DNA of 64,000 bases from Vezdaea acicularis (lineage: Eukaryota), in assembly GCA_026025075.1 (NCBI GenBank), contig JAPEUI010000007.1, positions 186,001 to 250,000 on the forward strand. The letters run 5' to 3'. The first letter of the stretch is position 1; each line of letters starts with the position of its first letter. The notes beneath the pieces were generated by a model, which was given only the letters and a program-made list of their open reading frames with translations, did not search any database and had not been told where the DNA came from. The translations under genes and the position numbers were made by a program. Below, piece by piece: positions 28,931 through 43,764 of this stretch.

Positions 28931-30149
28931 TCAAACCAGCTTATCCGGATCGGGCAGCCGATCCAACAGCCAACGGTGAATACTCTCCTTAAAGGCATAG
29001 ATGACGGTTGCAGTCACGACGAAGAGGGCGACGCTTCCGCAGACCTCCCAGAAATAAGGTTCGCCCTTGGTGGTGCCGGAGATGCCCTGGAGGTTCATGC
29101 CGAAGTAGGAGGTGAAGAAGGACAGGGGCAGAAAGACAATGGTGACACCGGTGAAGATGAGGATAGCGCGGTTGTTGGACTCGGCGAGGATGGCGACTTC
29201 GTTCTGCTCCATGGAGCGGAGCTGGTAGTACTGCGGTGTTTCGGGAAAACGTTAGGAAAGGCTTCGAACGGGCAGGTGGGATGAGCTTACGGCGTCGAGA
29301 GACGATTTGAGATCGGCGAGCATTTTTTGCATCCTTCGGTGATTCTCCTTGACACGCGCATAGGATGCATCGATCATCGAAAGTACGGTAAGATTATTGA
29401 CTACATCGTTGCTAGTAGTCAAGATTGGTGAATTCTGACAGTCGATTCTTAGACAGTCAAGCAAATCGAGCCATTCCTCTGAGATGTTAGCTGCCCGACG
29501 GATCTCATTCATGCATGCAACGCAGTCTCGGACAAATGCTATGGATTCGTGTCGCCGAAATCGGGAGTCTCGGCGGTTTTTTTGAAACCAGAGTCAGTCT
29601 ATGAACAGGAAGTATCCTCTTCGACATACCAGATCTCTAATAATTGGTTGGTAGGCAGAATGAAAAGATGATGCACTCCTGAAGTCACTATGTGGACTTT
29701 GAGCTAGTATTGTCAGCAATCTAACAATCAGTAATTCCACATTCTTGTCGGTCCAGTCTTTTGTGCCACGGAAAGACATAGCGAAGATTGACCGGCCCAG
29801 ATTTGCAGTGAGAGGATATATCTCTTGGGAAAAAACAAAACTTGAGTCAGGGGGGCCATTAGATAGATGTTTCCTAAGATCTGGTTCGATATGACACAAA
29901 CCAGCCATCGGAGAGAGTGTGAGGAGGAACCCTATTGATATAAGTTTGGGGATGTTTCCTTAGCAGATTATTATATTTACCTTCGTAATGGCAGCATCGA
30001 AATGTATCCCGCATAATAGCGACATTCTCATACAATGCGTTTTTGCAGAGAATTTGCTCTTGAGCATGCAGCTCCGGAATAGCGAGGCCTGCGCCCGTAT
30101 TTCCTATGTCAAGGGGTAACCTTACAGCGCATGCTTGTTGGAGCAGCAT
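28931..30149 (-). pseudogene. CorA-like (GMN motif) membrane protein gene, probably defective or truncated
   Basis: Last exon reads AILIFTGVTIVFLPLSFFTSYFGMN...YFWEVCGSVALFVVTATVIYAF (two TM helices, GMN). Upstream exons join through GT-AG introns, but the second intron (donor GTATGT ~29629, branch CTGAC) has TTCAA where a phase-0 CAG is needed (~29582). A solo LTR abuts the 5' end. Confidence 0.65.
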
Positions 30150-30152
30150 TAT

Positions 30153-30576
30153 TGTTAAAAGCCGCTATGGCTTTCGCGATGGCTCGCCGGCAGAGCTATA
30201 GCGGCTAAGCAAGATGAGCGCCGCTTAGGGCTTAGCTCAGGAGAAACGATGATCGAACTCCTTTCCCATATATGCCCGATGGCGCTACCCCGATGGCTCA
30301 TCATCGAATAGTCTTATTCATATACTATAACTAGGATATACGAGACTTCATAGCAATACTATCATATCTATCTGAGTCTATTATATCTATATTGTCCCAT
30401 TTAATTAGGCAACTTTCATTATACCCGTCATAAATCATTATACCTAGCTATCATAGCCTCCTAGCCCGCGTACGCCTCACTGAGCGTACACAGTATGTTA
30501 GCTATATCTGTTCCGCCAAGGTGTGGCATTCTAGGTACGTTTCCTATCCGTCAAGCACACCTTGCCGTACTATACA
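30153..30576 (-). mobile_element. Solo LTR, diverged relative of LTR family 1
   Basis: TG...CA ends. Contains GCTAAGCAAGATGAGCGCCGCTTAGGGC and CGATGGCGCTACCCCGATGG, reverse complements of motifs in the LTR copies at 37-42 kb. TSD is not clean (TTAT/GTAT). Confidence 0.75.
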
Positions 30577-30602: not shown

Positions 30603-33600
30603 CTAAACTTTGGAGGTGTTGGGGTGTGCTTGCAACAGCTTGACAACGTCTTTGTATCCGTTCTCTGCCGCCCACATCAGCGGTGTCCGTTCGTCGTTAT
30701 TCTTCGCGTCGACATCGACCTCGTCATCGGTGAACAGCCACTTAGCAGCTTTCGCAAACATGCTCTTTGTAGTAGGTGCCAGCGCTGTCTGAGCCCTCTT
30801 ACTACAGAACGTAACGTCGGCTTGAGCTCCCAGCAGCAGCCGAACGACAGCTGCGTGTCCACGTTTTGCCGCAGATAAGAGCGGCGATGACCAGATCCCA
30901 TGACGGTCGAGAACTACTGTGTTGACGTCGACAGAATTGGTCTTGAGCAGCAGCTCTACGATGGAGTCATGCCCGTTTTCGGCAGCACAGAATAGCGGCG
31001 TTGAACCGTCGAAGGCACTTTTCGAGTCCGGTATTGCTTTGTCTTTCAGCAGTCGCTCCACCATAGCTTTATGCCCTATGGTAGCAGCGTACTGCAATGG
31101 CGTACCGTCCAAGCCGTCCTTGACATTAGGATCGGCTTTCGCGTTGAGTAGCAGTTCCACAATCGCTTCGTGCCCCAATTTAGCAGCAAGTAATAATGGC
31201 GCGTCACCCCATTTATCCTTCAAGTTCGGGTTGGCTTTCGCTCTGAGAAGTAGCTTGACAATGTTATCGTTTCCTTTCCCAGCGGTCAGTGATAGCGGTG
31301 TGTGGCCGAAGTCATCCATCTCATTAGGGTCGACTTTCTCTTTGGGTTTGAGCGATGTCTCAACCTTAATTTTGTCCCCTTGCTCAACAGCCCAAGTCAG
31401 CTGCGTCCAGCTCTCCTCGTCCAGGTCGGCACGGACATTGATCCAGTCCATATGTATTTGCGTGTAGGGACAGCAATCTGATAGAGAAACAGGCATGTGA
31501 CACCATCCGCTCCTCAGTTTTTCCGGTAACAGACGTGGCAGCGGCAATTTAATTCTTCGCCGCTGCTGAATTGAGTTCATCGCAAAGACAAATCGATGTT
31601 TTAGCCATTTTGGCCCGATTCCGAGCCGTAGTAATCTCCTCTTTTGGATTGATGCGGGGGTGTCGAATACCCTTACTATTGACTCTGTCAGGCTGAATCT
31701 AGAGCCGCTAATGCTCTCATCGTCAAAAGGGGCGACGTCGTAGCGATCTAATTCCTCCTTTCTTTCCTCGTCGTGTATCAGGTCGACTCTCATCGTCCAT
31801 GCCGGGGACGGATGCATGTCGTCGCGATGACCCTTGCACTTCAGGTCGCAGCACATGTACATGAATAGTGCAGCAGCTAGCTCGTCTTTGTACTTCTCGC
31901 GCCTCCGGAGAACAGGCGGTGGTTTCTTGACGATTATCGGCTGCTCTTTGGCTGGTTTCCCCTCATTGCCTGCCTGGCCCTCGATTGATGTCCTCTCGCT
32001 GGTCGCTTTTTCTTTGCCTCTTGTCCCTTTCGTACTGCCGGCTGCTTTCTTGGTTCCCGTCGGGTTTTGACTGCTCGCCGGACTCGTGCTATTGCCCAAG
32101 ACTTTGGTTCCTTTGGCGCCTTTTCCTGTCGCATTGGTGCTCTTCGAAGCAGTGTTGTCCTGGTCCGAGCTAGGCGTACCGAACGACTCTATCGGGATGA
32201 AAGTATTCATAACATCCGCGAGCGAACGAAGTCGATCATGCGACGCATATTCCTTGAGCGGCCTCCAAAGAGTATCTCCGCGGGCCATAAAATCCTTTTC
32301 CTTGGCGATGGACTCTCGCTCGTTATTGAGGTAGAAGATCGGGATGCCGACAAAACCGGCTCCTTCGACAAATCCAGAGCGGTGCCCGATGACGCATATC
32401 TTGGGGATATATCGCCTGCAAAGAAGCGTCTATATGGCAAGGATCTTTACTTGCAAGGGGAGGTGATCAAACTCGCGCTCGTCGCTTGAGCCGCGAAACC
32501 TTTTCCACAATTCGTCAACCTGCGGATCTTCGGGTTCTTCGGGGTTTTTGGTATATACCCACGGACGAGATATGAACGAGACTTGAATCTTATCCAGAGT
32601 ATGCTTTTCGACCAAAGCTTTCAGGTCACGCGCTGTCGGGAAATTGAAGTCACCGTATAGCAGGATATGAGAGAATTGAGTCTCTGATGCGTGCTCTGCG
32701 ATCTTGTTTGCGTTCGCCACGGACTGAGCCACGTATGCCAGATTTTCATCGTCCATTATGCGACCAACCTCAGTCTTCGGATTGCGACGGACATGAATGA
32801 CGGCCAGTCGTTGGATCTCGTGATACTTTGGTAACTTTGACCAATTAAGCGGTTTGACTTGATTATTCCTGAGACTCGCTGATCCCGGGGGAATACTTGG
32901 AAGGTGTGTAATGCGGAGATAGCGATTTATCTAGTATTGCGCCGCGAATGTAGGGTGGAAATAGTGATCCGACAAGTCCACATGGCTTGCATTCTTCCCC
33001 GTCATTCCGTCCTTAAGTCGACCATCCAGCATGATTCTGAGATATTTGAATAGTCCTTCTTGATCACAGTGCATTTCTTTGCCACCGTTCGAATGGTCGA
33101 GCTCGGCCTCTTCTAGCCAGGTGTTAGGATCTTGAGTAGCCTTAAACGCATCATGAATGACTCGAGTCAACTGATCTTTACCACGGGCTTCTATGTATGG
33201 GGCAGTTCCCGGGGGTCTGTCAGGGATATCATACCATTTGAAGAGATCCCTGATATCTGTTTCTATATTCTGATCAAAATTAATGTAGATGTTATGCCTG
33301 GAATGCTTGAGAATAAGGGCGGCGACGAGGGCTTGATATGCCTCGCCAAACTCTCCTTTCCCAAGCTTTAACGCTATGGTTCGAGGCTTCTCTCCTCCAA
33401 CAGAGTTCAAAGCCACGGGAAAGTCCTGTCCAGGCTTCAAGTTGTCGGCCTATTGGATACTGGAGTCGTTCCTAGCTTCAGATGGTCGGATAGCTCGCCG
33501 CACTATGCCGTACGATTCCCACAAGGGGTAAATGATGTTGCATAAAGGACAAGGCTGTTCCAGGTCTTTACACTGAATTTTTTTGTCTTTGGAGACAATG

Positions 33601-33653
33601 TAGATCTTGCGCCTGTGCAATTCATTCCCTTGCTGTGAATGCTTGCAGATCAT
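30603..33653 (-). pseudogene. Intronless 1016-codon frame: putative GT-B glycosyltransferase-like domain + Lys/Thr-rich linker + ~7 ankyrin repeats, interrupted by three in-frame TAG codons (pseudogene, or editing/readthrough-dependent gene)
   Basis: ORF-track pieces 33653-33450, 33440-32931, 32756-32430 and 32288-30603 are all in one frame, and the gaps between them are open. The only lesions are TAG at 33452-33450, 32933-32931 and 32432-32430. Ankyrin repeats (GHTPLSLTAGKG, GTPLQYAATIGH, STPLFCAAENGH, RTPLMWAAENGY) are clear; the GT-B assignment is motif-level inference. Confidence 0.8.
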
Positions 33654-34994
33654 TCTTTATGCCAGTGTCTTGGCCGGAGACTCAACCGCGAGGGATGCCA
33701 ATGTACAGGATGTTGCACAAGAAACTGTCGCCGTTGAGAACCTAACTCTAGGACAAATAGTGTAGATATGAAGAGGTACAGGGGGATTTTGGCGATGAAA
33801 CCTATAAGGGTTCACGATGATATCTCGCGGGGTTTGTGGGATCAGCGTGAAATGTACCGGTCTGATGGTAATGGTTGTTATTGTTATCTTTTTAGCTATC
33901 TACGAGAGATATAGATAAGTGCTCGGGCATGCCAAGTGACTAGGTCCTTGGCACCCGCGACACACGACCGTAGCCTTGTACTGTAGGGGTTCGCGGTGGC
34001 GGCCTTACTCAGTCTACCCTAGAAGTATTTGTCATCGTCTGGCTGTCAACTAGGGCCAGCCACCACGAGAAACCCTGCTTTTTCACGGCGCTTTGTTATG
34101 TTTTTGGCGCGCGAACGCGGACCAGAGTGATACCCTCAGGCTAAATTCCGCAAGCCTCTCTTATTTGGGCAATAGGTTTAGGGCAAGCCTAGCGTCAGTG
34201 TTAGCGTCTCAGTTACAATACTTCTTGCCGTAGTACAAAACCGAGGATGGGTAGTAGTGAGTTGTTGCTCTCGTATTCGTGTTGATCCATCCAGCCGGTT
34301 CACGTGGTAAGAAGATTTATAGGCTTTGTTGTTACAACGATAAACATGACCACCTGAAAAGACCGGGGATCCGGCCAGGCAACGACGAAAGGTTGGCCTG
34401 AGTCACGTGATACAGCCTGATCTGTTGAAAGAATGGCAGGATCGGACGGCGCTAAGCGAATTATGCGGGGGAGACAGAAAGATATTCGAGACTGCCTGTT
34501 CAACTTATGCAGTCGTTATGTCAGGTATTTTGAGAGGTTCAGAATGACTTCTATTCACTGTCCTTAGACAGTGGGTGGTTCTATATTTTAAGATGAAGAT
34601 GTGTCTTACTGTGGATGAAGACTGTGTTGAGTTGACCCCGCACAAGTCACTGCTAGCGGTTGCTGAATTCAATCAACCTTGCATTCATTTTCACGGTGAA
34701 TGAGCTGGGCGAGCCCACGTTGACATAATTTCTCGAGTTGCATTCTTGTCTTGCTCCTCACGGAGCATCTTGTCATGTAGGTCCAAAGAATCAATAGTCT
34801 CAATCGCGCTCTTCATAGGTGCCCCTAGGGCTCTACTCCCTGCACGGTCGCTCCATGACAAGAACTCCATTTACGGTAAACATATTCATAGATTTTGACG
34901 GAGAAATAGTTCAAGCAATTTTAGCTTTCGTGACTACCTGCCGTGGGTACTCCTGGCTTCTCATCGCCTCTGCCTCTGTCTCCGTGCCGGTTTC

Positions 34995-35773
34995 TTACCA
35001 TCTCCGTTGCCCGTCTTGCCGTGTTGGTTCCGCCTGATATGGTGTATTTCCGCCCCCTGGTTGTCTATACTGCCGTGTCGGTTCCGCCTGATGCGATGTA
35101 TTTCTGTATTCTGCTTGACTGTAAGGCTCTTCTGGTGGTGCCTGATACGATGTATTTCCATATTCTGCTTGACCGTACTGCCCTCCCTGTCCCATCTCAT
35201 ACGGTTCCGTTCCAACTTCCGCTGGACTATACTGCCCTTTTGGTGGTGCCTGATACAGTATCTTTCCATTTTCTGCTGGACTGTACGGCCCTGTCGGGTC
35301 CGTCCGATGAGATTTGCTATCAAGTTCTCTTGCTATTTCGGTAATCTGTGCTTGAGCCGTTGGCGAGACTGAAGAACTTCTCGAAACGTCTTGCTCGAGA
35401 AGGCGGAGTCTTTTCTCTAACTCGTCTAGACGCCAGCGTTCGTCGGTTGAGCTTGTCGTCTATATTCGTTCCCCGGAGGATGGGTCAGTCTCTAAAGAAT
35501 CGACATCTCGTTTGTTTCGTAGGGTTTTTGAGGAGAGAGGAGGGAGGGAGAGAGGGAGAGAAGAATGCAAAGATGTAAGAAAAATAAAAAGGAGGGCAGA
35601 TGGGAATTTCCATTTACAGCTCCCGACTATCTATCACTACTCACCCCCATCAAATCCACGACAAGCTTGATAGAATTTCCAATAAACCATATGGCAGTTG
35701 CGACATCTGCCCCAATTACTGCCCAAGGGCCCATTCGATTATGGTTTGGAGCCCCGTAGGATTGACCTGCCAT
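34995..35773 (-). CDS. Orphan two-exon protein (197 aa): hydrophobic N-terminal helix, short coiled coil, 18-aa Q/Y/G/P repeats
   Basis: Exon 1 35773-35645 (donor GTGAGT, phase 0); intron with CTGAC branch and TAG acceptor; exon 2 35459-34995 open to TAA. Protein: MAGQSYGAPNHNRMGPWAVIGADVATAIWFIGNSIKLVVDLMG-TTSSTDERWRLDELEKRLRLLEQDV...YQAPPKGQYSPAEVGTEP YEMGQGGQYGQAEYGNTS YQAPPEEPYSQAEYRNTS HQAEPTRQYRQPGGGNTP YQAEPTRQDGQRRW. Confidence 0.65.
35000..35310. repeat. Coding minisatellite, ~5.5 copies of a degenerate 54-bp unit
   Basis: CCTGAT...GTATTTC recurs at 54-bp spacing (e.g. 35035, 35089, 35143). Confidence 0.85.
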
Positions 35774-36172
35774 TTTTTCTTCCTGGCAATCGTTTTTGAT
35801 TTCCAGTTTCTTCTCTGTTCTGATTTTTGATTTGGCCACGGGGACGAAGGACGCTGGAATATGATGAGCACGAAGATGACAGTCAAAAAGGTATATGTGT
35901 ACTATCGAGAGCCGTCGATGTCTTCGGGAGAGGAGAGGGCCAGGACAGAGTATTTGAAGGGCATGGTGGGAGGAAAAGGCGTCTCATATCTCACAGCCTT
36001 ATTTTTTTGGTAAGCAAGAAAGTGTATCAGCCTCATTTTTGGGGGTGTATTTTCTGACTCCCGGTGAAGCGGCCCCCTCTCCAAGACGCTAGCTTGGCAC
36101 TATACTCAGCCTTTGTCGCGCTCAGCCAATGAGATCACAATAGAGACTTGGCAAAAATTTTCAATTCTGCTA

Positions 36173-37841
36173 CAGTACCAAGTCAAAAATTTGAATCGCT
36201 CGTGTAGATTTTTGAGACGCGTCAATCTATCCCAATGCCCCGACCACCATCAACTCACCAACAAATCAATTGCAAGCTCTTGCTGCATAAAAGAGCTCGT
36301 GTATGTGGTGCCCAAGACACTGGACTAAAGTATGAGCAAATATTTAGGCTGTACCAAGAGAAAATTGCAACAGTAAAGACCACTATTAGACGCCAATCAA
36401 AACGCATATCTTGTCAAACATAATCACGCTTAGGGAGGCCAAAGAAGCTAACTCTAAGAGACTAACGCAAGATATTATGATGGATACAGCATAATCCTAA
36501 ATCAACATTACAAGCTACACTCCAAGAATGCTCTTTCACTATATCAAAATCAGCGCTTTAAATATACTTTAAAACTCTCAATATAACCAAGTGAAAGGCA
36601 CAAAAAGACCTCTTTTAACGCTAAAACATATTGCAAATTGATTAATATGGACTTAAAAATACATTACATGAACTGAAGAAGATTGGAAAAGAGTTAGATG
36701 GAGTGATGAATGTAGTATAAAGAGAGGATAAGGATAACAGCAAGAGTAGATGTTTAGAAGACTTGGGGAAAGCCTTAAAAAATGGGCAGTACAACCAAAA
36801 GCAACATTAACAAAGCATATAAAAAGGGTTTGGGCTTGTTTTGAGCATGGTATAAGGTCAGATTTGGTGGTACTTAATGGTGATCTGTTGGCACCTAAAG
36901 AAGAGATTTTCTTGAGGACTATACTCAATTGTTATAAGGAACATCTTGGCACAGTGCTTGAACATGATTCTATCTTCATGTCAAATAATACAAGTGTATA
37001 TACAGCAAGAATTGTGAAGAATTGGCTTGAAGAAAATAGTTATAAAGATGAGCACAAGCTCTGCCTTTTTCCTGAGAGCGTGGTAGACATACAACGTTTG
37101 CGTTCTGCCTGCGGCAAGGGGACGTACGCTCAGCTAAGCATATGCGGACTACGGTAGCTAGATATAATGGTATGCTGCGGATATAATAATATTTGTCCAA
37201 TTATATAGGGCAATATATATACAATGGGGTCATATAGATATAATGAAATCTCGGATGATCTAGCTATAGCATATAATAAGAAAACTATCTGATGATGCGC
37301 CATCGGCATATATGGATAAGGGGTTCAATCAGCGCTGCCCCTAGGTTAGGCTCTAAGCGACGTTCATTTTGTTTAGCCCGCCATAACTCCGCTGGCGGGC
37401 TATCGAGGAAGCTATTGCGGCGTCTTACAATAGTATACAAGTTATGATATAACCTTCCTATTCTCCGGATCTAACCCCATTGAGAACCTATGGTTTTTTT
37501 TGAAAGCAGCTATTCACCGCAACTATCTGGAGTTATTAAGAATGAAGGGGCAACAAACTGTGGATAGGCTCATTGAAGCTGCTATTAAGGCTTGAGATGA
37601 ACTTAGGGAGGAGATTTTGGATCACCTGTTAATATCGATGCAGAAATGCTATCAAGCAGTATTAGATGCTGAGGGATGGTATACAAAGTACTAGATTTTA
37701 TCTACGGCTTCTATGAGGCCTCATATTACCTCTACACAAATCACAAGTGCTTATCTACTGTTGTCACAAAGTTATTGTAACTCAAATATGTAGAAGCGAA
37801 GTTGCTTGATCTGAGCAATTCAAACTTTTGACTTTGTACTG
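36173..37841 (+). mobile_element. Tc1/mariner DNA transposon relic with inactivated transposase (~36235-37693)
   Basis: 29-bp TIRs CAGTACCAAGTCAAAAATTTGAATCGCTC / GAGCAATTCAAACTTTTGACTTTGTACTG, flanked by TA on both sides. Transposase remnants GRPKKL, WKRVRWSDECSI, SYSPD-NPIENLW and AVLDAEGWYTKY carry stops and frameshifts. Confidence 0.93.
37041..37429 (+). mobile_element. Solo LTR family 1 (copy A) inserted in the Tc1 transposase
   Basis: TATAAA (decayed TGTAAG)...CTTACA with a perfect 5-bp TSD ATAGT (37036-37040 / 37430-37434). Confidence 0.92.
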
Positions 37842-38717
37842 TATGTTTTCAGGCCTACGTCAATAACTTGAACAGCCTAGATTGCCTAAAGTAGCTGTTT
37901 AGACAGCCCGGACAGCGAGCTTAGGCAGTCTAGACAGCCTCCAAGTCTGAATTTTCAAGTTGTCCTACATTGTCTGGAGGCTTTTGATATTAACAAAAGC
38001 CCGCTAGATTTGCAATTTGCGGACAAAGGCAAGAGTTTTAGCTAGCTGGTTGCACAATGCAGCGGTGCTAGTCCTAGAAACAGAAAATCTAGATAGCATA
38101 TTAGTGATACGCATCAAACAATGCGGACTGGGAAAAATGAAGGCATTCAGAAACCATTAGAATCTAGAAGCAGTCTAGCAGCTTTAGTGCCAAGCTAACG
38201 TCTTAAAAGAGGTCTCGTTTTACCGGAAGTTGAATTTTCAGCGCTAGTGGTTGTCAAATTCAGTCCAACTTGCACTCATTTTCACATTACGGAAGCGATC
38301 ACGCAGTAATTTGAAAACCAAAAAAATCTATTCTAAAGTAATGACAAATAACTATGCATGCGTCACACTAGGGAATCTAAAGCTTGCGCATGTGATAGGA
38401 CTATTATTCAGCGTATACTATATGGCAAATTTTATTACAGAAGTTTAAGAAAGATATATCCTCTCACAAATAAATAACATGACACGAGTTCTGTTTATTG
38501 ACATAATATATCTAAAATTATTTCACTATTAATAGATTAATAGTCCTGCAACAAGATGGAAGTTTCTCAGTCATAAGCACTTGCAAGCGCATGCATCAGC
38601 TATCTCAACAAAAAAATAAGCTACTAGGTGTTGTTTTTTCAGCCTGGATTTCTGATTCTGTGATCTCACAACTGTGCTCTATACCCTGAGTATGCGGTAA
38701 CGCTAAGCAAACCCCTT

Positions 38718-39123
38718 TATAAGACGCCACGGTGGCTTCCTTAGTGGCTCGCTAGCGGAGATATGGTGGATTAAACAAGATGAACGCCGCTTAAGGCTTA
38801 CCCCAGAGGCATTGCTGATCAAACCTCTTATTTATATATGCCAACGGCGCCACCTCAATGGCTCATCATTGGATAGTTTCCTGCTATATGCTATAGCTAT
38901 ATTTTATGAGATTTTATTATATCTATATGATCCCATTATCCCTATATTGTCCCATGTAATCGGGCAATATCATTATATCTGCCGCATATTGTTATATTTA
39001 GCTACTGCAGCCTCGTAGCCAGCGTACATCTAGCTGAGCGTATACCTTTTTGCCGTAGGCAAGTAAGTGTTATACGCCTGCCACACTCTCAGAAAAAAGG
39101 CAGAGCTCATGCCTATTCTTCCA
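38718..39123 (-). mobile_element. Solo LTR family 1 (copy B)
   Basis: Reverse complement of copy A; 5-bp TSD CCCTT (38713-38717 / 39124-39128). Confidence 0.92.
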
Positions 39124-39852
39124 CCCTTCAACTAAAAAAGAATGTAATGCCTATTGCCACCTATTTGAAAAGGCACAAGCCATCTGCTACCGGTAACTAG
39201 AGAGGCTATCTGCGCTTCAGGCGCTCCATGCCTGTTAAGCCTGCAATTGTACTCTGCTCGCCCAAGCTGCATCTATCAGCGTTTCAAGCGTTTTAAATTG
39301 AACCGGCTGATCATCGCATCTTGTGCGCCTGGGCCGTATCCATCAGCGCTTCAAGTGCTTTGAGTCCAACCAATCAGCCATCACAGCCCACTTGCGCGAG
39401 CTGTATCCATCAACGTTTCAAGCGCTTTAAGCCCAACTGGCCAGCTATTGCAGCCCGCGCATTCAAGCAGTATCCATCAGTGTTTCAAGGGCTCTGTGCC
39501 CGTTAAGCCTGCAATCGCATCCCGTGCGCCCAGGCTATACCCATTAGCATCTAAAACGCTTTAAGCCGAGATATTTTTTGCTTGCCTGAGTTTCATATAT
39601 AACCGCTTCAAGCACTCTAAATTAAGGCGCTTTTTGCTTGATTGGATTTTCTTTTCTGTAAGAGTGGGCACAAGCTCTGCCCCTTTTCTGAGAGCGTGGC
39701 TGGCATATAACGTTTGCGTCCTGCTTGCGGCAAGGAGACGTACGCTCAGCTAGGCGTACGCGGGCTACGATAGCTAGATATAATGATATGCTGCGGATAT
39801 AATGATATTCGCTCGATTATATGGGGCGACATATATACAATAAGGTCATATA

Positions 39853-40670
39853 TGTAAGGGTGGGCACGAGCTCTGCCCTTTTCCTAAGAGCATGACAGGC
39901 GTACAACGTCTGCGTCCTGCTTGCGGCAAGCAGGCGTACGCTTAGCTAGGCGTACGCGGGCTACGGTAGCTAGATATAATGATAGGATGCGGATATAATG
40001 ATATTTGCCCAATTATATAGGGCGATATAGGGATAATAGGGTCATATAGATATAATGAAGTCTCATACGATCTAGCTATGGCATATGGTAGGAAACTATT
40101 TGATGACAAGCCATGGGGGTAACGCCATCGGCATATATAGATAAAGGGCTCAATTAGCGCTGCTCCTGTGCTAGGCTCTAAGCGGCGTTCATCTCGCTTA
40201 GCCCGCCCTAATTCCGCTGGCGAGCTATCGAGAAAGCCACTGCGGCGTCTGTAATGACTGTACTAGCTCCTAGCTTCTATCAAGTCTTTTGGGATGAATA
40301 AGGGGTAAGGAGGCTAGCTTTGCTTCAGCTTTGCTTCAGCTTCGCCTAGCTCCCTAGCACCTAGTATAAGGCCAGGTGGTTCTTAGATCATCTGACATAG
40401 ACAAGCGTAGCTATTAGAGCTGCCGCTTCCCTTAGGATAGCTCTTCAGCAATCAACTCATCTATTCATCTGAATAACTAGTAGGAAGGCATCCTTGCTTT
40501 ACTTTGTCTGACCTTTTTCCTATCTTGCCTTGCCTCGTCTTGCCTCGCCCCAGTACTATCACTGCACCTAGTCTTCGTCTGCAAGTTTTTGAGTCCTTGG
40601 GAGTTAGCTCACACGCCTACAGACCCTTGCTCCCTGACAAAGCACTGGCCTGTCCTTACAGCGTTTTACA
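39853..40670 (+). mobile_element. Solo LTR family 1 (copy D) inside copy C, split by copy E
   Basis: TGTAAG at 39853, TTACA at 40670; TSD ATATA (39848-39852 / 40671-40675). Confidence 0.9.
40250..40660. mobile_element. Solo LTR family 2 (copy E) inside copy D
   Basis: TGTAATG...CCTTACA, 411 bp, unrelated to family 1; TSD GCGTC/GCGTT. Confidence 0.85.
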
Positions 40671-41177
40671 ATATAGATATAATAAAATCTCGTACGATCT
40701 AACTACAGCATATAGTAGAAAACTATCCGATGGTGAGCCATTGGCATATATAAGTAAGGGGTTTAATCAACACTGCCCCTAGGTTAGGCCCTAAGCGGCG
40801 TTCATCTTGTTTAGCTTGCTATAGCTCCGCTGGCAGGCCACCAAAGAAGCCACCGTAGCGTCTTACACTTTCAAACACAAGCAATCCAGTCTATACCACT
40901 TCTTTTGAATGATTCTCTGAAGGTCTGCCGCATTTTTAACAACTTCTGATCTGTTGTTGATAGCTTGTTTGTTGTGGAATAGCAGGATAGGGACAGATGA
41001 GCTATAGGGGCAGGAGCAGATACGCTATATACTGACAGATGCAGCCTCCTTATAGCGCCTACCTATAGGAGCAGCGCTATGAGGCATGCGACTGCCTCGC
41101 AACAGATAGCGCTTATCGCGCTGTCCTGACCAGGCAGTTGTGACCGGGCACGTGATAATCCGTATATATAACGTATT

Positions 41178-41475
41178 TGTTGTGGGACAGCGGGATAGGG
41201 GCAGATGGGCTATAGGGGCAGGAGCAGGTACGCGATATACTGACAGACGCAGCCTTCTTATAGCGCCTGCCCATAGGGGCAGCGCTATAAGGCATGCGAC
41301 TGCCCTGCAACAGACAGCGCTTACTGCGTTGTCCTGACCGGGCAGTCGTGACCGGGCACGTGATGACCCATATATATAGCGTATCCCCCTAGATAGAAAC
41401 AATGCAACTCTTTCATCATAAACCCGTATCAGGACGCCTTATCCTTGCAGTGTCTGGACACCCTGTGGCCTGACA
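41178..41475 (+). mobile_element. Solo LTR family 3 (copy H)
   Basis: 298 bp, TGTTGTGG...CCTGACA; TSD GTATT (41173-41177 / 41476-41480). Confidence 0.92.
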
Positions 41476-41535
41476 GTATTCCCCTAGATAGAAACAATAT
41501 AACTCTTTCATCATAAACATGTATCAGGACGCTTT

Positions 41536-41937
41536 TGTAAGAGTGGGCACGAGCTCTGCCCCTTTCCTAAGAGCATGGCAGGCGTATAACGTCTGCGTTC
41601 TGCCTGCGGCAAGGAGGCGTACGCTCAACGATGCGTACGCGGGCTACAGTAGCTAGATATAATGATATGCTTTGGATATAATGATATTCGCCCGATTATA
41701 TGGGGCGATATAGAGATAATGGGGTCATATAGATATAATGCAGTCTTGTACGATCTAGCTATGGCATATGGTAGGAAACTATTTGATGACAAGCCCTCAG
41801 GGTAGCGCCATCGGCATATATAGGTAAAGGGCTCAATCAGCGCTGCCCCTGTGCTAGGCCCTAAGCGGCGTTCATCTCGCTTAGCCCGCTTTAGCTTTGC
41901 TGGCAGGCCACTGAGAAAGCTACTGCGGCGTCTTATA
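41536..41937 (+). mobile_element. Solo LTR family 1 (copy F)
   Basis: 402 bp, TGTAAG...CTTATA; TSD GCTTT/GCCTT. Confidence 0.92.
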
Positions 41938-41960
41938 GCCTTGTCTTTGCAGTGTCTGGA

Positions 41961-42271
41961 TGTTGTGGGACACTTGCATATGGGAGCAGGGGGATAGCGA
42001 CGGGATACAGGGATAGGGAGTAACTACGCAGCAATACTAATATAGACAGCCTTCGTATAGCGCCTGCCTATAGGGGCAGCGCTATGCGGTATGCGACTGC
42101 CCTACAACGGACAGCGCTTGCCGCGCCGTCTTGACCGGGCAGTCGTGACTGGCACGTGACGACTCGTATATATAACGTATCCTCCTAGATAGAAGAAATA
42201 CAACTCTTTGATCCCCATACTATATCAGGACATCTAGTGCCCTGACGTGTTAGGACACCTGTGCCCTGACA
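41961..42271 (+). mobile_element. Solo LTR family 3 variant (copy I)
   Basis: 311 bp, TGTTGTGG...CCCTGACA; TSD CTGGA (41956-41960 / 42272-42276). Confidence 0.9.
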
Positions 42272-43764
42272 CTGGACACCCTGTGCCCTGACATTGTTTG
42301 AGTTGTAACTATAGATTTTTGATAGGGATTGAGGTCTGGAGAGCATGCTGGCCAGTCCAACATTGGTATTCTATTTTTTTGAAGTCAATTTTTTACGAGT
42401 TTTGACCTGTAGCATGATGCTCCATCATGCATATAATAATATTTTTAGTGTTTCTGTATAAACTGGCGCAATTTGAGCAATACTACAGTCTTCAAAATAT
42501 CTTACATATATTTTTCTCCATTCATCCTACCATTTAGCATAATCATAGACCTCAATTCTTTATCTCTTATATAAGTCCAGTTGCCAACAGATGTTCTGCC
42601 ACCTTTAAATGTTGATGTTAAACATTCAGCAATATATTCTTCTTCTGGTTTATGCCATATCCACACAACTCTGCTGTCTAATCTTAATTCTATATTATAT
42701 TTATCACTAAAAAGTACTTTAGCCCAATCTTTAGATGTCTAATATTTATATGCTTTTGCAAATGCTAGACATGCGTTTTATGCCTTTGATTTAAGAATGG
42801 TTTACGTCTGGCAATCCTACGGTGATATTCAAACTCATCTAAAACTGCTCTGACTGTAGGTGCACTGCAGTGGAAAACGCGGCACAACTCTGCTATTGAG
42901 ATATGCCTATCCTGAATGGCTATTCTGACTAGCCTGCATCTGTCTCTTATCGAAAGACATTTGGGCCGACCGCTTTGAGGCCGGCGGGTTGTGGGGTCGT
43001 CGGGATTCTTTTTGGCTCGAGCTACTACTCTCAAAATCTGGCCCAGCGAGACATGCTCACTTCTCACAATAGTTCTATAAGGAATCTTATGCTTCAGGAG
43101 TGCCAAAACAGCCGAGGCTTTCTGAGGGGTCATATGCCAATGCGCTATCATTTTGGTACAGATTGAATGCTTCTACGACTATCTAAAGCTTCAATCGAGA
43201 ACTTCCCGCTACCCCACAAATCTCTAAAACCTTACGCAATTTTAGTGTTCCGATACTTTTTTAAGCCGACTGTACAAAGAATCATTACCAAAAGCCTTGA
43301 CAAACGGACAGTAGTTACAAAGAAAGAAATCAACTTTAGCGTAGAACCTCACTCTCTAAAAAGTCCATAACTAATACAGTACAATCACAAAGCTGTAAGG
43401 CAAAAGCAGTACAGCGTTTCTGGGCATCAAGTTCTCCATTTACAAATGTGAATATTTGCCATGATGGATATTGATTGATACTTCTACCGCATCATCTACT
43501 CACAACAACAAGCATAGCCCATCCAACACCCGATTGCGCTGTCCATCGCAAAGCGCAGGGTGTCTGCCTACTTCTCTCCCCCCTCCTCCCTTTCCCCCCA
43601 CGCACCACTGTATCCATTTGCCCAAGAGTCGGAAGAAATGAATCAAGACCTCCAAGAACCCGCAAACAACAGACGCAAGCGCGAGCCCCACGTGGACGAG
43701 AACCAAGAAAAAAATCGGCGTGAATACGAGCCACCGCCCATCAGGCTAAACCCGCGACGGGACA

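What the first reader, a model, noticed from the sequence alone, without database searches (positions are those of the whole stretch)
30603..33653. Enzyme-ankyrin gene locked by three in-frame TAG codons at Trp-compatible sites: candidate RNA-editing-gated effector
Seen: one intronless, frameshift-free 1016-codon frame whose only lesions are TAG at codons 68, 241 and 408 (SIQ*ADNL, AQY*INRYL, LAI*TLLC). There are no TAA/TGA stops and about 17 other TGG codons are intact. All three stops lie in the N-terminal putative catalytic half, while the last 561 codons (ankyrins) are open from their own ATG. Each editable A has U at -1 and purines at +1/+2. Known: sexual-stage A-to-I mRNA editing in Fusarium and Neurospora corrects premature UAG to Trp in genes that look like pseudogenes, and favours U at -1. 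Inference: a toxin or effector made full-length only after triple editing, possibly in a lineage where such editing is undescribed. The competing explanation is about as plausible: light single-strand RIP (CCA>CTA) also yields only TGG>TAG stops, and repeats nearby are decayed in a RIP-like way.
Basis: partly seen in the sequence, partly recalled or inferred. Interest (0 to 1): 0.78.

Follow-up and report, generated by a model that had tools for sequence, protein, structure and literature searches.

The report
Three TAG stops in fungal glycosyltransferase-ankyrin gene
A lichen-fungus gene for a glycosyltransferase-like enzyme fused to ankyrin repeats is intact except for three TAG stops, at least two replacing conserved tryptophans; it is most likely a very young pseudogene, but repair by RNA editing cannot be excluded without RNA data.

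Summary
Window 30603-33653 (-) is one 1016-codon frame. Its only internal stops are TAG at codons 68, 241 and 408, and 17 TGG codons are intact. Codons 241 and 408 fall on family columns that are Trp in 73 of 86 and 52 of 97 relatives. Codon 68 lies in an unalignable, disordered loop. The locus is the one annotated as a 700-aa Vezdaea acicularis protein that starts at Met300 and skips stop 408 with a non-canonical 51-nt intron. The N-terminal part belongs to a small fungal family with no Pfam model and a GT-B-like fold. Nothing supports a toxin or effector role.

Apart from the stops the gene looks undamaged. The editing idea could not be tested because no sequencing run was listed. Indirect tests do not favour it: +3 is a pyrimidine at 3 of 3 sites, 0 of 3 sites sit in a hairpin loop, no deaminase gene lies nearby, and the lineage is outside those known to edit. 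Nearby repeats differ almost only by transitions.

My odds: young pseudogene about 0.57, restorative A-to-I editing about 0.25.

The parts
30603..33653 (-). Whole 1016-codon frame plus TAG terminator: GT-B-like enzyme domain fused to C-terminal ankyrin repeats, interrupted by three TAG codons
33450..33452 (-). In-frame TAG, codon 68. It lies in a variable, unalignable loop that is disordered in the model (residues 59-76, pLDDT below 50). The ancestral residue is unknown.
32931..32933 (-). In-frame TAG, codon 241. The family column is Trp in 73 of 86 non-gap sequences (Y 10, L 1, C 1, K 1). It lies between helices 234-239 and 243-248 of the model.
32430..32432 (-). In-frame TAG, codon 408. The family column is Trp in 52 of 97 non-gap sequences (F 25, Y 11, L 4, five others 1 each). 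It lies between helices 400-406 and 410-415, in the 10-residue blocks 401-420 that average pLDDT 97.
32184..33653 (-). Residues 1-490: conserved fungal family domain with no Pfam model and two Rossmann-like halves. It keeps all 32 columns that are invariant in the 23-sequence alignment, including H287, R289, the Y333-G334-D335-F336 run, and G423, R425-S426-G427-F428 and E430 of the conserved loop at 423-430.
31929..32171 (-). Residues about 495-575: Ser/Thr/Lys/Gly-rich low-complexity insert, predicted disordered (residues 503-563, pLDDT below 50)
31554..31928 (-). Residues about 576-700: C-terminal conserved helices of the family domain. They pack back onto the Rossmann domains; structural alignments run from about 90 to about 626.
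30606..31406 (-). Residues about 750-1016: ankyrin repeats (Ank_2 E 6.5e-43)
32400..32450 (-). 51-nt stretch (codons 402-418) left out of the public 700-aa annotation as an 'intron'. Its donor and acceptor (GTAAAG...AAG) are non-canonical. Removing it deletes nearly invariant family residues, so it is an annotation device to skip stop 408.
30203..30276 (.). 74-nt fragment of the repeat family that fills 37-42 kb, lying 330 bp beyond the gene's 3' end
   Evidence: I6, I7
36001..43200 (.). Repeat-rich, lower-GC tract (0.38-0.51) with a Tc1/mariner-type transposase relic at 42768-43172. The copies differ mostly by transitions.

Best explanation
This is a recently disabled (unitary) gene of a lichen-associated ascomycete. 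It encoded a cytoplasmic GT-B-fold, glycosyltransferase-like enzyme of an uncharacterised fungal family, fused to a C-terminal ankyrin-repeat module.

Three G-to-A transitions on the coding strand (C-to-T on the window's plus strand) made TAG stops. At least two of them are TGG (Trp) to TAG. They probably arose close together in time, either as ordinary transitions or through the transition-only (RIP-like) mutation process whose traces are seen in the neighbouring repeats. That is why nothing else in the frame is damaged yet.

As encoded, translation ends after 67 residues and no enzyme is made.

Shown: the stops, the Trp ancestry of two of them, the lack of other damage, the fold, and the transition-biased repeats. 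Inferred: the timing, the mutational mechanism and the absence of rescue.
For: - Stops and codon counts.
- Trp at the columns of codons 241 and 408: 20 of 22 and 19 of 21 close homologs; 73 of 86 and 52 of 97 in the wider set.
- The changes are exonic. No plausible in-frame intron covers stops 68 or 241 (0 candidates each), and only one poor 147-nt candidate covers 408.
- A transition-only mutation process is visible 2.4-9 kb away. Ten repeat-copy comparisons gave 193 transitions to 73 transversions. The comparisons are not independent and one pair is nested in another. Three non-overlapping pairs gave 64:4.
- A fragment of that repeat lies 330 bp from the gene's 3' end.
- CpA>TpA mutation on both strands would give 'three TAG, at least two from TGG' with P about 0.17 (my arithmetic on the counts). 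One-strand action would give it almost always.
- Indirect editing tests were negative. The +3 base is a pyrimidine at 3 of 3 sites (contexts against PMC11156358 section 5). P(unpaired) for the three A's is 0.10, 0.07 and 0.40, against a mean of 0.74 for all 22 UAG in the gene, and 0 of 3 are in a hairpin loop with 30-nt flanks.
- There is no deaminase in the flanks.
- Editing is reported only for Sordariomycetes and Pyronema. It was not found in Aspergillus nidulans or Botrytis cinerea (PMC11156358, passages read).
- Among 71 edited pseudogenes of F. graminearum, 6 have two sites and none is stated to have three (PMC10776026, passages read).
Against: - The gene shows no other decay. It needs no frameshift over 1016 codons. 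It deviates from the family consensus at 11 of 113 conserved columns, two of them the stops. Intact homologs deviate at 4 of 132 to 25 of 135.
- Its terminal branch (0.80) is shorter than that of its intact sister P0002 (1.00); the median is 0.74 (quick tree).
- Random neutral decay that yields three nonsense hits should bring tens of other substitutions and some indels (inference from general knowledge).
- All three stops are TAG and none is TGA. Yet C>T changes in the local repeats show no CpA preference (CA 57, CC 51, CG 47, CT 38, not normalised). That process should make TGG>TGA about as often as TGG>TAG.
- Context-free transitions on both strands give the pattern with P about 0.04.
- The gene's RIP indices equal those of intact neighbours: TpA/ApT 0.63, (CpA+TpG)/(ApC+GpT) 1.25.
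- No paralog that could have triggered RIP was seen. Only one V. acicularis protein appeared among the 31 hits, but the genome itself could not be searched.
Confidence: 0.57

Rival explanations
1. This is a restorative (premature-stop-correcting) A-to-I mRNA editing target. The three UAG codons are deaminated to UIG and read as Trp in a particular stage, most likely in the apothecia. The full-length enzyme-ankyrin protein is then made only at that stage, and the genomic stops keep it off elsewhere. This would be a triple-site case in a lineage where such editing has not been described.
For: - The pattern matches that of edited pseudogenes in Fusarium and Neurospora. Only TAG stops are present, and at least two derive from TGG. 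PMC10776026 (passage read) states that premature TAGs were mainly derived from TGG by G-to-A mutation.
- The stops lie in or before the conserved domain, and the frame is otherwise intact.
- There is no TGA at any of the 17+2 Trp codons. The local mutation spectrum should produce TGA as often as TAG.
- P = 0.003-0.04 under unbiased or context-free transition models (and my arithmetic).
- PMC10776026 notes premature stops at editing sites in species of other Pezizomycotina classes whose editing status is unknown.
- Editing arose at least twice, in Sordariomycetes and in Pezizomycetes. A third system, OLD-ZAO, corrects UAG in vegetative cells (PMC12754623, part 1 of 3 of the text read).
- The protein contains a long disordered region, as 50 of 71 Fusarium cases do (PMC10776026 passage).
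Against: - There is no RNA evidence of any kind.
- The lineage is outside those known to edit. Editing was not found in a Eurotiomycete or a Leotiomycete (PMC11156358).
- The +3 purine preference is unmet at 3 of 3 sites, and 0 of 3 A's are in a hairpin loop.
- There is no OTT_1508-type or other deaminase in 28.1-36.4 kb, and the target is not a zinc-finger factor.
- Three sites must all be edited on one mRNA, so the yield is the product of three editing levels.
- No three-site case is stated among the 71 Fusarium genes.
- No ortholog is available to show that the stops are conserved.
- The finding was selected from a very large scan because of this very pattern.
Confidence: 0.25
2. The stops are real but the locus still makes a shorter product. 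One candidate is the ankyrin-bearing C-terminal protein from Met456 (the 561-aa ORF). Another is a product of the annotated Met300 model. In either case the gene has been converted from an enzyme into an ankyrin scaffold.
For: - The ORF 30603-32288 of 561 aa is open from an ATG.
- The ankyrin repeats score strongly (Ank_2 E 6.5e-43).
- The public annotation predicts a 700-aa product.
Against: - Met456 and Met300 lie inside the second Rossmann-like domain, so such products would begin with an incomplete fold.
- The annotated model depends on a 51-nt 'intron' with non-canonical ends that deletes nearly invariant residues.
- There is no evidence for an internal promoter or transcript.
Confidence: 0.08
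3. The stops are an artefact or a non-standard decoding event. Possible causes are errors or minority variants in a metagenome-assembled genome, programmed readthrough of UAG, or a suppressor tRNA.
For: - The source is a metagenome-assembled genome according to the name of the identical public protein.
- No reads could be laid on the locus to check it.
Against: - Three independent G>A errors confined to Trp or TAG sites are improbable.
- The gene itself terminates with TAG after the last ankyrin repeat, so TAG is a stop in this organism.
- No tRNA gene lies in the window.
- By eye, the bases after the three stops do not look like the readthrough contexts I recall; no motif was scanned for.
Confidence: 0.05

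Closest known systems
[quoted passage not shown]
   Same: An otherwise intact ORF is interrupted only by TAG. The TAGs sit where relatives have Trp. The stops lie in or before the conserved domain, and a disordered region is present.
   Different: - No RNA evidence exists here.
- The organism is a Vezdaea species, outside Sordariomycetes and Pezizomycetes.
- There are three sites rather than one or two.
- The +3 base and hairpin-loop preferences are not met.
- Conservation of the stops across species is unknown.
OLD-ZAO modules (an OTT_1508-like deaminase next to a zinc-finger gene whose UAG it corrects) in Neurospora
   Same: A UAG stop gates a full-length protein whose constitutive form would be costly.
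   Different: No deaminase gene lies within about 2.5 kb on either side or in any longer ORF of the window. The interrupted gene is an enzyme-ankyrin fusion, not a zinc-finger factor.
Genes inactivated by repeat-induced point mutation or its leakage from adjacent repeats (recalled from the Neurospora and Leptosphaeria literature, not read here)
   Same: - The lesions are G:C to A:T transitions on one strand that create TAG from TGG.
- Repeats with transition-dominated divergence lie nearby.
- A repeat fragment lies 330 bp away.
   Different: - The gene's RIP indices are those of intact genes.
- Only three lesions are detectable.
- The repeats show no CpA preference and a negative composite index.
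- No duplicate of the gene is known.
GT-B fold glycosyltransferases, nearest GT9 heptosyltransferases (1psw, 3tov, 2h1f)
   Different: - There is no sequence-level match to GT9 or to any Pfam, NCBIfam or PDB family.
- The family is fungal and small: 144 representatives among 1.84 billion proteins.
- Donor and acceptor substrates are unknown.

Membership tests
Fungal PSC pseudogenes restored by A-to-I mRNA editing | Otherwise intact ORF interrupted by in-frame UAG only | tested here: met
   Three TAG, no TAA or TGA, no frameshift in 1016 codons
Fungal PSC pseudogenes restored by A-to-I mRNA editing | The stop sits where the functional protein needs a sense codon, typically Trp | tested here: met
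   Codon 241 column: W in 73 of 86. Codon 408 column: W in 52 of 97, with F or Y in 36. Codon 68 is not alignable.
Fungal PSC pseudogenes restored by A-to-I mRNA editing | A-to-G change at the site in RNA of the relevant stage | not testable with these tools
   No sequencing run was listed for the locus
Fungal PSC pseudogenes restored by A-to-I mRNA editing | Cis preferences of the editing complex: U at -1, A/G at +1 and +3, adenosine in a hairpin loop | tested here: not met
   -1 U and +1 G are automatic for TAG. The +3 base is C, T, C, so 0 of 3 are purine. 0 of 3 sites are in a hairpin loop with 30-nt flanks, and P(unpaired) is 0.10, 0.07 and 0.40. These are preferences, not absolute rules.
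Fungal PSC pseudogenes restored by A-to-I mRNA editing | Organism belongs to a lineage with demonstrated mRNA editing | tested here: not met
   The organism is Vezdaea acicularis by identity to P0001, classed as leotiomyceta incertae sedis. Editing is documented for Sordariomycetes and Pyronema only (PMC11156358 and PMC10776026 passages). One search for A-to-I + RNA editing + lichen listed nothing relevant among its 10 listed papers, judged from titles and abstract starts; 27 papers held the terms.
Fungal PSC pseudogenes restored by A-to-I mRNA editing | Stop conserved among related species under purifying selection | not testable with these tools
   The nearest relative other than the locus's own annotation is 41% identical. 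No near-identical fragments were found among shorter proteins.
OLD-ZAO neighbour-editing module | OTT_1508-like deaminase gene adjacent to the interrupted gene | tested here: not met
   70 stop-to-stop ORFs of 45 aa or more in 28.1-36.4 kb, and 38 longer ORFs across the window, gave no deaminase family. Exons shorter than 45 codons would be missed.
OLD-ZAO neighbour-editing module | Target is a zinc-finger transcription factor | tested here: not met
   Only ankyrin families hit, and the fold is GT-B-like
RIP-mutated sequence | Lesions are C:G to T:A transitions | tested here: met
   The two lesions with known ancestry are TGG>TAG. This is n = 2 only.
RIP-mutated sequence | RIP indices shifted (TpA/ApT above 0.89, (CpA+TpG)/(ApC+GpT) below 1.03; thresholds recalled) | tested here: not met
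   The gene gives 0.63 and 1.25, the same as intact neighbour ORFs. A light event of about 20 changes would not move these indices.
RIP-mutated sequence | A duplicated template, or adjacency to repeats that show the same process | tested here: inconclusive
   A repeat fragment lies 330 bp 3' and a repeat tract starts 2.4 kb 5'. The repeats differ 193 ts: 73 tv, and three independent pairs differ 64:4. However, there is no CpA bias, and the genome could not be searched for a paralog.
GT-B glycosyltransferases (GT9-like) | Two Rossmann-like domains in GT-B arrangement | tested here: met
GT-B glycosyltransferases (GT9-like) | Sequence membership in a curated GT family | tested here: not met
   No Pfam, NCBIfam or PDB sequence hit for the N-terminal 740 residues or for intact homologs
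GT-B glycosyltransferases (GT9-like) | Nucleotide-sugar-dependent transfer activity | not testable with these tools
   Needs biochemistry on an intact homolog
Ankyrin-repeat proteins | Tandem 33-residue ankyrin repeats | tested here: met
   Ank_2 E 6.5e-43 and Ank E 1.1e-38, over about residues 750-1012

The most novel reading that the evidence does not exclude
Vezdaea, a lichen-associated ascomycete far from Sordariomycetes and Pezizomycetes, has stage-specific A-to-I mRNA editing. This gene would be a three-site restorative target, with a GT-B-type enzyme-ankyrin protein kept off in the thallus and switched on only where all three UAGs are recoded to Trp. That would be either a further independent origin of fungal mRNA editing or a much older one. 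It would also be the first triple-gated case.
Probability: 0.22. Interest if true: 0.8.

Novelty: new member of a known kind. Interest (0 to 1): 0.42.

Why it matters
If the stops are simply lesions, this is an ordinary young pseudogene. The lasting value is then small. It gives a corrected reading of a mis-annotated public protein, and it shows that a small, unnamed fungal family has a GT-B glycosyltransferase-like fold.

If the stops are edited, the case would extend restorative A-to-I editing to a lichen-forming lineage. [quoted passage not shown]

The locus offers a cheap and sharp test. One amplicon with three diagnostic positions, sequenced from fruiting bodies and from vegetative tissue, would decide it.

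Tried and rejected
- Sequencing runs for the locus: none was listed.
- Whole genome: none is held. I could therefore make no census of other TAG-interrupted genes and no search for paralogs, RID/Dim-2, AME1 or OLD homologs.
- Other TAG-interrupted frames in the window: apart from the target, every stop-to-stop frame of 300 codons or more that opens on TAG readthrough is an extension past an ordinary ORF end.
- tRNA scan of the window: 0 genes.
- Introns as an explanation of the stops: rejected.
- The 3' neighbour (CorA-like gene) has TGA and TAA between same-frame ORFs. Both lie inside canonical introns, within branch-point-like CTGAC and CTAAC, so that gene is not decaying.
- Related DNA: 5 metagenome loci of the family (L001-L005) carry no in-frame stops in the aligned parts. 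L003 keeps both Trp codons.
- Shorter-protein search for fragments from other isolates: no near-identical hit; the best is 68% over 22% of the region.
- Strand asymmetry of CpA/TpG and base skews around the gene: within the range of other genes, so not informative.
- Sequence searches of the N-terminal domain against PDB and NCBIfam: nothing.
- Earlier-findings look-ups: nothing for this genome or this sequence, and one unrelated dinoflagellate plastid case.
- N-termini of family fragments starting near profile positions 404-419: these are explained by Met codons and gene-caller behaviour, and are not evidence of stops.
Full report
**1. The observation.**
Translating window 30603-33653 on the minus strand gives one frame of 1016 codons ending in TAG. 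A codon count finds internal stops only at codon 68 (33450-33452), codon 241 (32931-32933) and codon 408 (32430-32432). All three are TAG. There is no TAA or TGA, and there are 17 TGG codons. The 561-aa ORF from an ATG (30603-32288) exists.

No other frame in the window shows the same pattern. In the readthrough scan, the other long frames that open on TAG readthrough are extensions past ordinary ORF ends.

**2. Where the window comes from and how the locus is annotated.**
The N-terminal 480 residues, read with X at the stops, found 31 fungal proteins. The top hit, P0001, is named as a hypothetical protein of a Vezdaea acicularis metagenome-assembled genome. It is identical to window residues 300-401 plus 419-1016, 700 of 700 residues. 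So the window is that locus.

The public model starts at Met300 and removes codons 402-418 as a 51-nt intron. That intron has the ends GTAAAG...AAG, no suitably placed branch-point motif and no YAG acceptor (the motif consensus is recalled). It would delete residues that are nearly invariant in the family. It is a gene-caller's way round stop 408. No plausible in-frame intron covers stops 68 or 241 (0 candidates each).

The rest of the window is ordinary fungal chromosome: PreP peptidase, P450, PDR-type ABC transporter, Dbf4, PanB, an E2 enzyme, NPC1 and an importin. There is also a repeat tract with a Tc1-type transposase relic at 36-43 kb. Vezdaea is placed in leotiomyceta incertae sedis.

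**3. Are the TAGs at tryptophan positions?**
I aligned the window's protein with 22 close homologs. The column of codon 241 is W in 20 of 22 and the column of codon 408 is W in 19 of 21. In a wider set of 137 family sequences that includes fragments, the counts are as follows:

| Codon | Non-gap sequences | W | Other residues |
|---|---|---|---|
| 241 | 86 | 73 | Y 10, L 1, C 1, K 1 |
| 408 | 97 | 52 | F 25, Y 11, L 4, five others 1 each |

Codon 68 lies in a region that does not align. In the structure model this region is a disordered loop (residues 59-76, pLDDT below 50), so its ancestral codon is unknown. Two of the three stops are therefore TGG>TAG, a coding-strand G>A change.

**4. What the protein is.**
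Pfam sees only ankyrin repeats, at about residues 750-1012. The first roughly 700 residues belong to a small family. A profile search found 144 representatives among 1.84 billion proteins, 84 of them at E<=1e-30. The named ones are all fungal: Dothideomycetes, Sordariomycetes and lichen MAGs. Neither NCBIfam nor PDB gives a sequence match.

An AlphaFold2 model built from a 50-sequence alignment has pTM 0.81 and mean pLDDT 75.5. It shows two Rossmann-like alpha/beta domains, a disordered Ser/Thr/Lys-rich insert (503-563) and C-terminal helices that return to the core.

- Foldseek against PDB lists almost only GT-B proteins: UDP-GlcNAc 2-epimerases, a GT9 enzyme, GT1 enzymes and MurG. The best E-value is 7e-4 and the global TM-scores are low.
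- The ESM Atlas's own model of the intact homolog P0008 is nearest to a GT9 cluster (TM 0.35/0.56).

I conclude that the fold is GT-B-like and that the protein is probably a nucleotide-sugar-dependent transferase. Membership of GT9 or any named family is not shown. The invariant residues (H287, R289, D335, the G423-G427 loop, E430) lie at strand ends of the second domain, where GT-B enzymes bind the donor. That last point is inference.

The ankyrin fusion was seen only in this locus among the 31 hits. By eye the N-terminus has no hydrophobic signal-like stretch. Nothing suggests a toxin or effector.

**5. Is the gene otherwise decayed?**
No.
- It keeps all 32 columns that are invariant in the 23-sequence alignment.
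- It departs from the consensus at 11 of 113 well-conserved columns, two of them the stops. The 22 intact homologs, scored the same way, depart at 4 of 132 (3.0%) up to 25 of 135 (18.5%).
- Only one of the nine missense departures is a G>A change (R171K). None is a TpG>TpA or CpA>TpA change.
- In a quick maximum-likelihood tree the window is sister to P0002 (SH-aLRT 99). Its end branch is 0.80, against 1.00 for P0002 and a median of 0.74.

So loss of constraint, if any, is recent.

**6. How unusual is 'three TAG, at least two from TGG'?**
The probabilities below use the gene's own codon counts.

| Mutation model | P | Source |
|---|---|---|
| Plain point mutation, ts/tv weights 1 to 8 | 0.0027 to 0.023 | |
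| Transitions only, both strands, no context (19+19+16+17+12 paths) | about 0.04 | my arithmetic |
| CpA>TpA on both strands (19+16+17 paths) | about 0.17 | my arithmetic |
| CpA>TpA on the template strand only | about 1 | my arithmetic |

The finding was chosen from a very large scan for exactly this pattern, so the small values do not settle anything.

**7. Tests for RIP.**
The gene's indices (TpA/ApT 0.63, (CpA+TpG)/(ApC+GpT) 1.25) match those of intact neighbours (0.55-0.72 and 1.12-1.40). The composite index is negative in every 1-kb bin between 28 and 47 kb. A light event of about 20 changes would not move these indices.

The repeats at 37-42 kb tell a different story. Ten copy-to-copy comparisons gave 193 transitions to 73 transversions. 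The comparisons share copies, and one pair is nested in another. Three non-overlapping pairs gave 25:2, 13:1 and 26:1. That excess points to a cytosine-deamination process acting on repeats. Its context is not CpA-specific (CA 57, CC 51, CG 47, CT 38, not normalised).

A 74-nt fragment of the same repeat lies at 30203-30276, 330 bp beyond the gene's stop. A transition-only mutation source therefore exists next to the gene. But if it has no context preference, it should have produced TGA at Trp codons as often as TAG, and it produced none.

Strand skews around the gene are within the range of other genes.

**8. Tests for editing.**
No sequencing run was listed for the locus, so the direct test could not be made. 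I ran four indirect tests.
- Sequence context: the review PMC11156358 (section 5 read) reports U at -1 and A/G at +1 and +3. Here -1 and +1 are fixed by TAG, and +3 is C, T, C.
- Structure: the same review reports a preference for hairpin loops. With 30-nt flanks none of the three A's is in a hairpin loop. P(unpaired) is 0.10, 0.07 and 0.40, against a mean of 0.74 for all 22 UAG triplets of the gene. Results vary with flank length.
- A neighbouring deaminase, as in the OLD-ZAO modules (PMC12754623, part 1 of 3 read): none was found among 70 ORFs in 28.1-36.4 kb or 38 longer ORFs across the window.
- Lineage: the passages read in PMC10776026 and PMC11156358 place mRNA editing in Sordariomycetes and Pyronema. 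They report that it was not found in A. nidulans or B. cinerea. They also say that premature stops occur at editing sites in other classes whose status is undetermined.

PMC10776026 lists 71 edited pseudogenes in F. graminearum, 6 of them with two sites. It does not mention three. One full-text search for A-to-I + RNA editing + lichen listed nothing relevant among its 10 listed papers, judged from titles and abstract starts (27 papers held the terms).

**9. Relatives elsewhere.**
Five metagenome loci of the family carry no in-frame stops in the aligned parts. No near-identical fragment from another isolate exists among shorter proteins, so I cannot say whether the stops are shared.

Two leads remain untested for lack of DNA. 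P0016, a relative of a Pyrenochaeta protein, lacks exactly the 24 residues around the codon-408 Trp. The Diaporthe protein P0042 is annotated from the Met300 equivalent.

**10. Verdict.**
The best reading is a very young pseudogene of a GT-B-like enzyme-ankyrin fusion, disabled by three same-strand transitions (0.57). Restorative A-to-I editing remains a live rival (0.25). It is favoured by the TAG-only, Trp-site, otherwise-intact pattern. It is disfavoured by context, predicted structure, lineage, the need for three edits, and selection bias. Minor rivals are a shortened ankyrin product (0.08) and an artefact or readthrough (0.05). One amplicon from fruiting bodies would decide.

Noticed in passing
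window 28934-29959 (-): CorA-like Mg2+ transporter gene (PF01544, E 2e-13 on its last exon). Its three same-frame ORFs are separated by TGA (29594-29596) and TAA (29252-29254). Both stops lie inside canonical GT...AG introns, within branch-point-like CTGAC and CTAAC, so the gene looks intact.
   Followed up: yes
window 36001-43200: Repeat tract with GC 0.38-0.51, several 60-300-nt repeat families and a Tc1/mariner-type transposase relic at 42768-43172 (HTH_Tnp_Tc3_2). The copies differ almost only by transitions in some pairs (25:2, 26:1, 13:1). There is no CpA preference and the composite RIP index is negative. This may be a non-Neurospora-type repeat mutation process.
   Followed up: partly
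protein P0016 (JGI source), aligned to window codons 396-419: This family member lacks exactly the stretch that holds the codon-408 Trp, the same stretch that the public annotation of this locus skips. A hidden in-frame stop in that organism is possible, but the DNA could not be fetched.
   Followed up: no
proteins P0042, P0074, P0043, P0049, P0051, P0159: Several family members are annotated as short C-terminal pieces although they lie on contigs of 10-113 kb. One example is Diaporthe australafricana P0042, which starts at the Met300 equivalent. This could reflect gene-caller behaviour at introns or frequent truncation in this family.
   Followed up: partly
window 39208-39564: Four copies of an 89-nt unit (64-71% identity to the reference copy), the last three spaced 67 nt apart so that they overlap, inside the repeat tract (D4)
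   Followed up: no
window 33654-36000: The 2.3 kb upstream of the gene holds ORFs of up to 157 aa on both strands, with no credible Pfam match (only stray hits at E 0.004-0.05, well under their cut-offs). It is unclear whether a gene lies here.
   Followed up: partly
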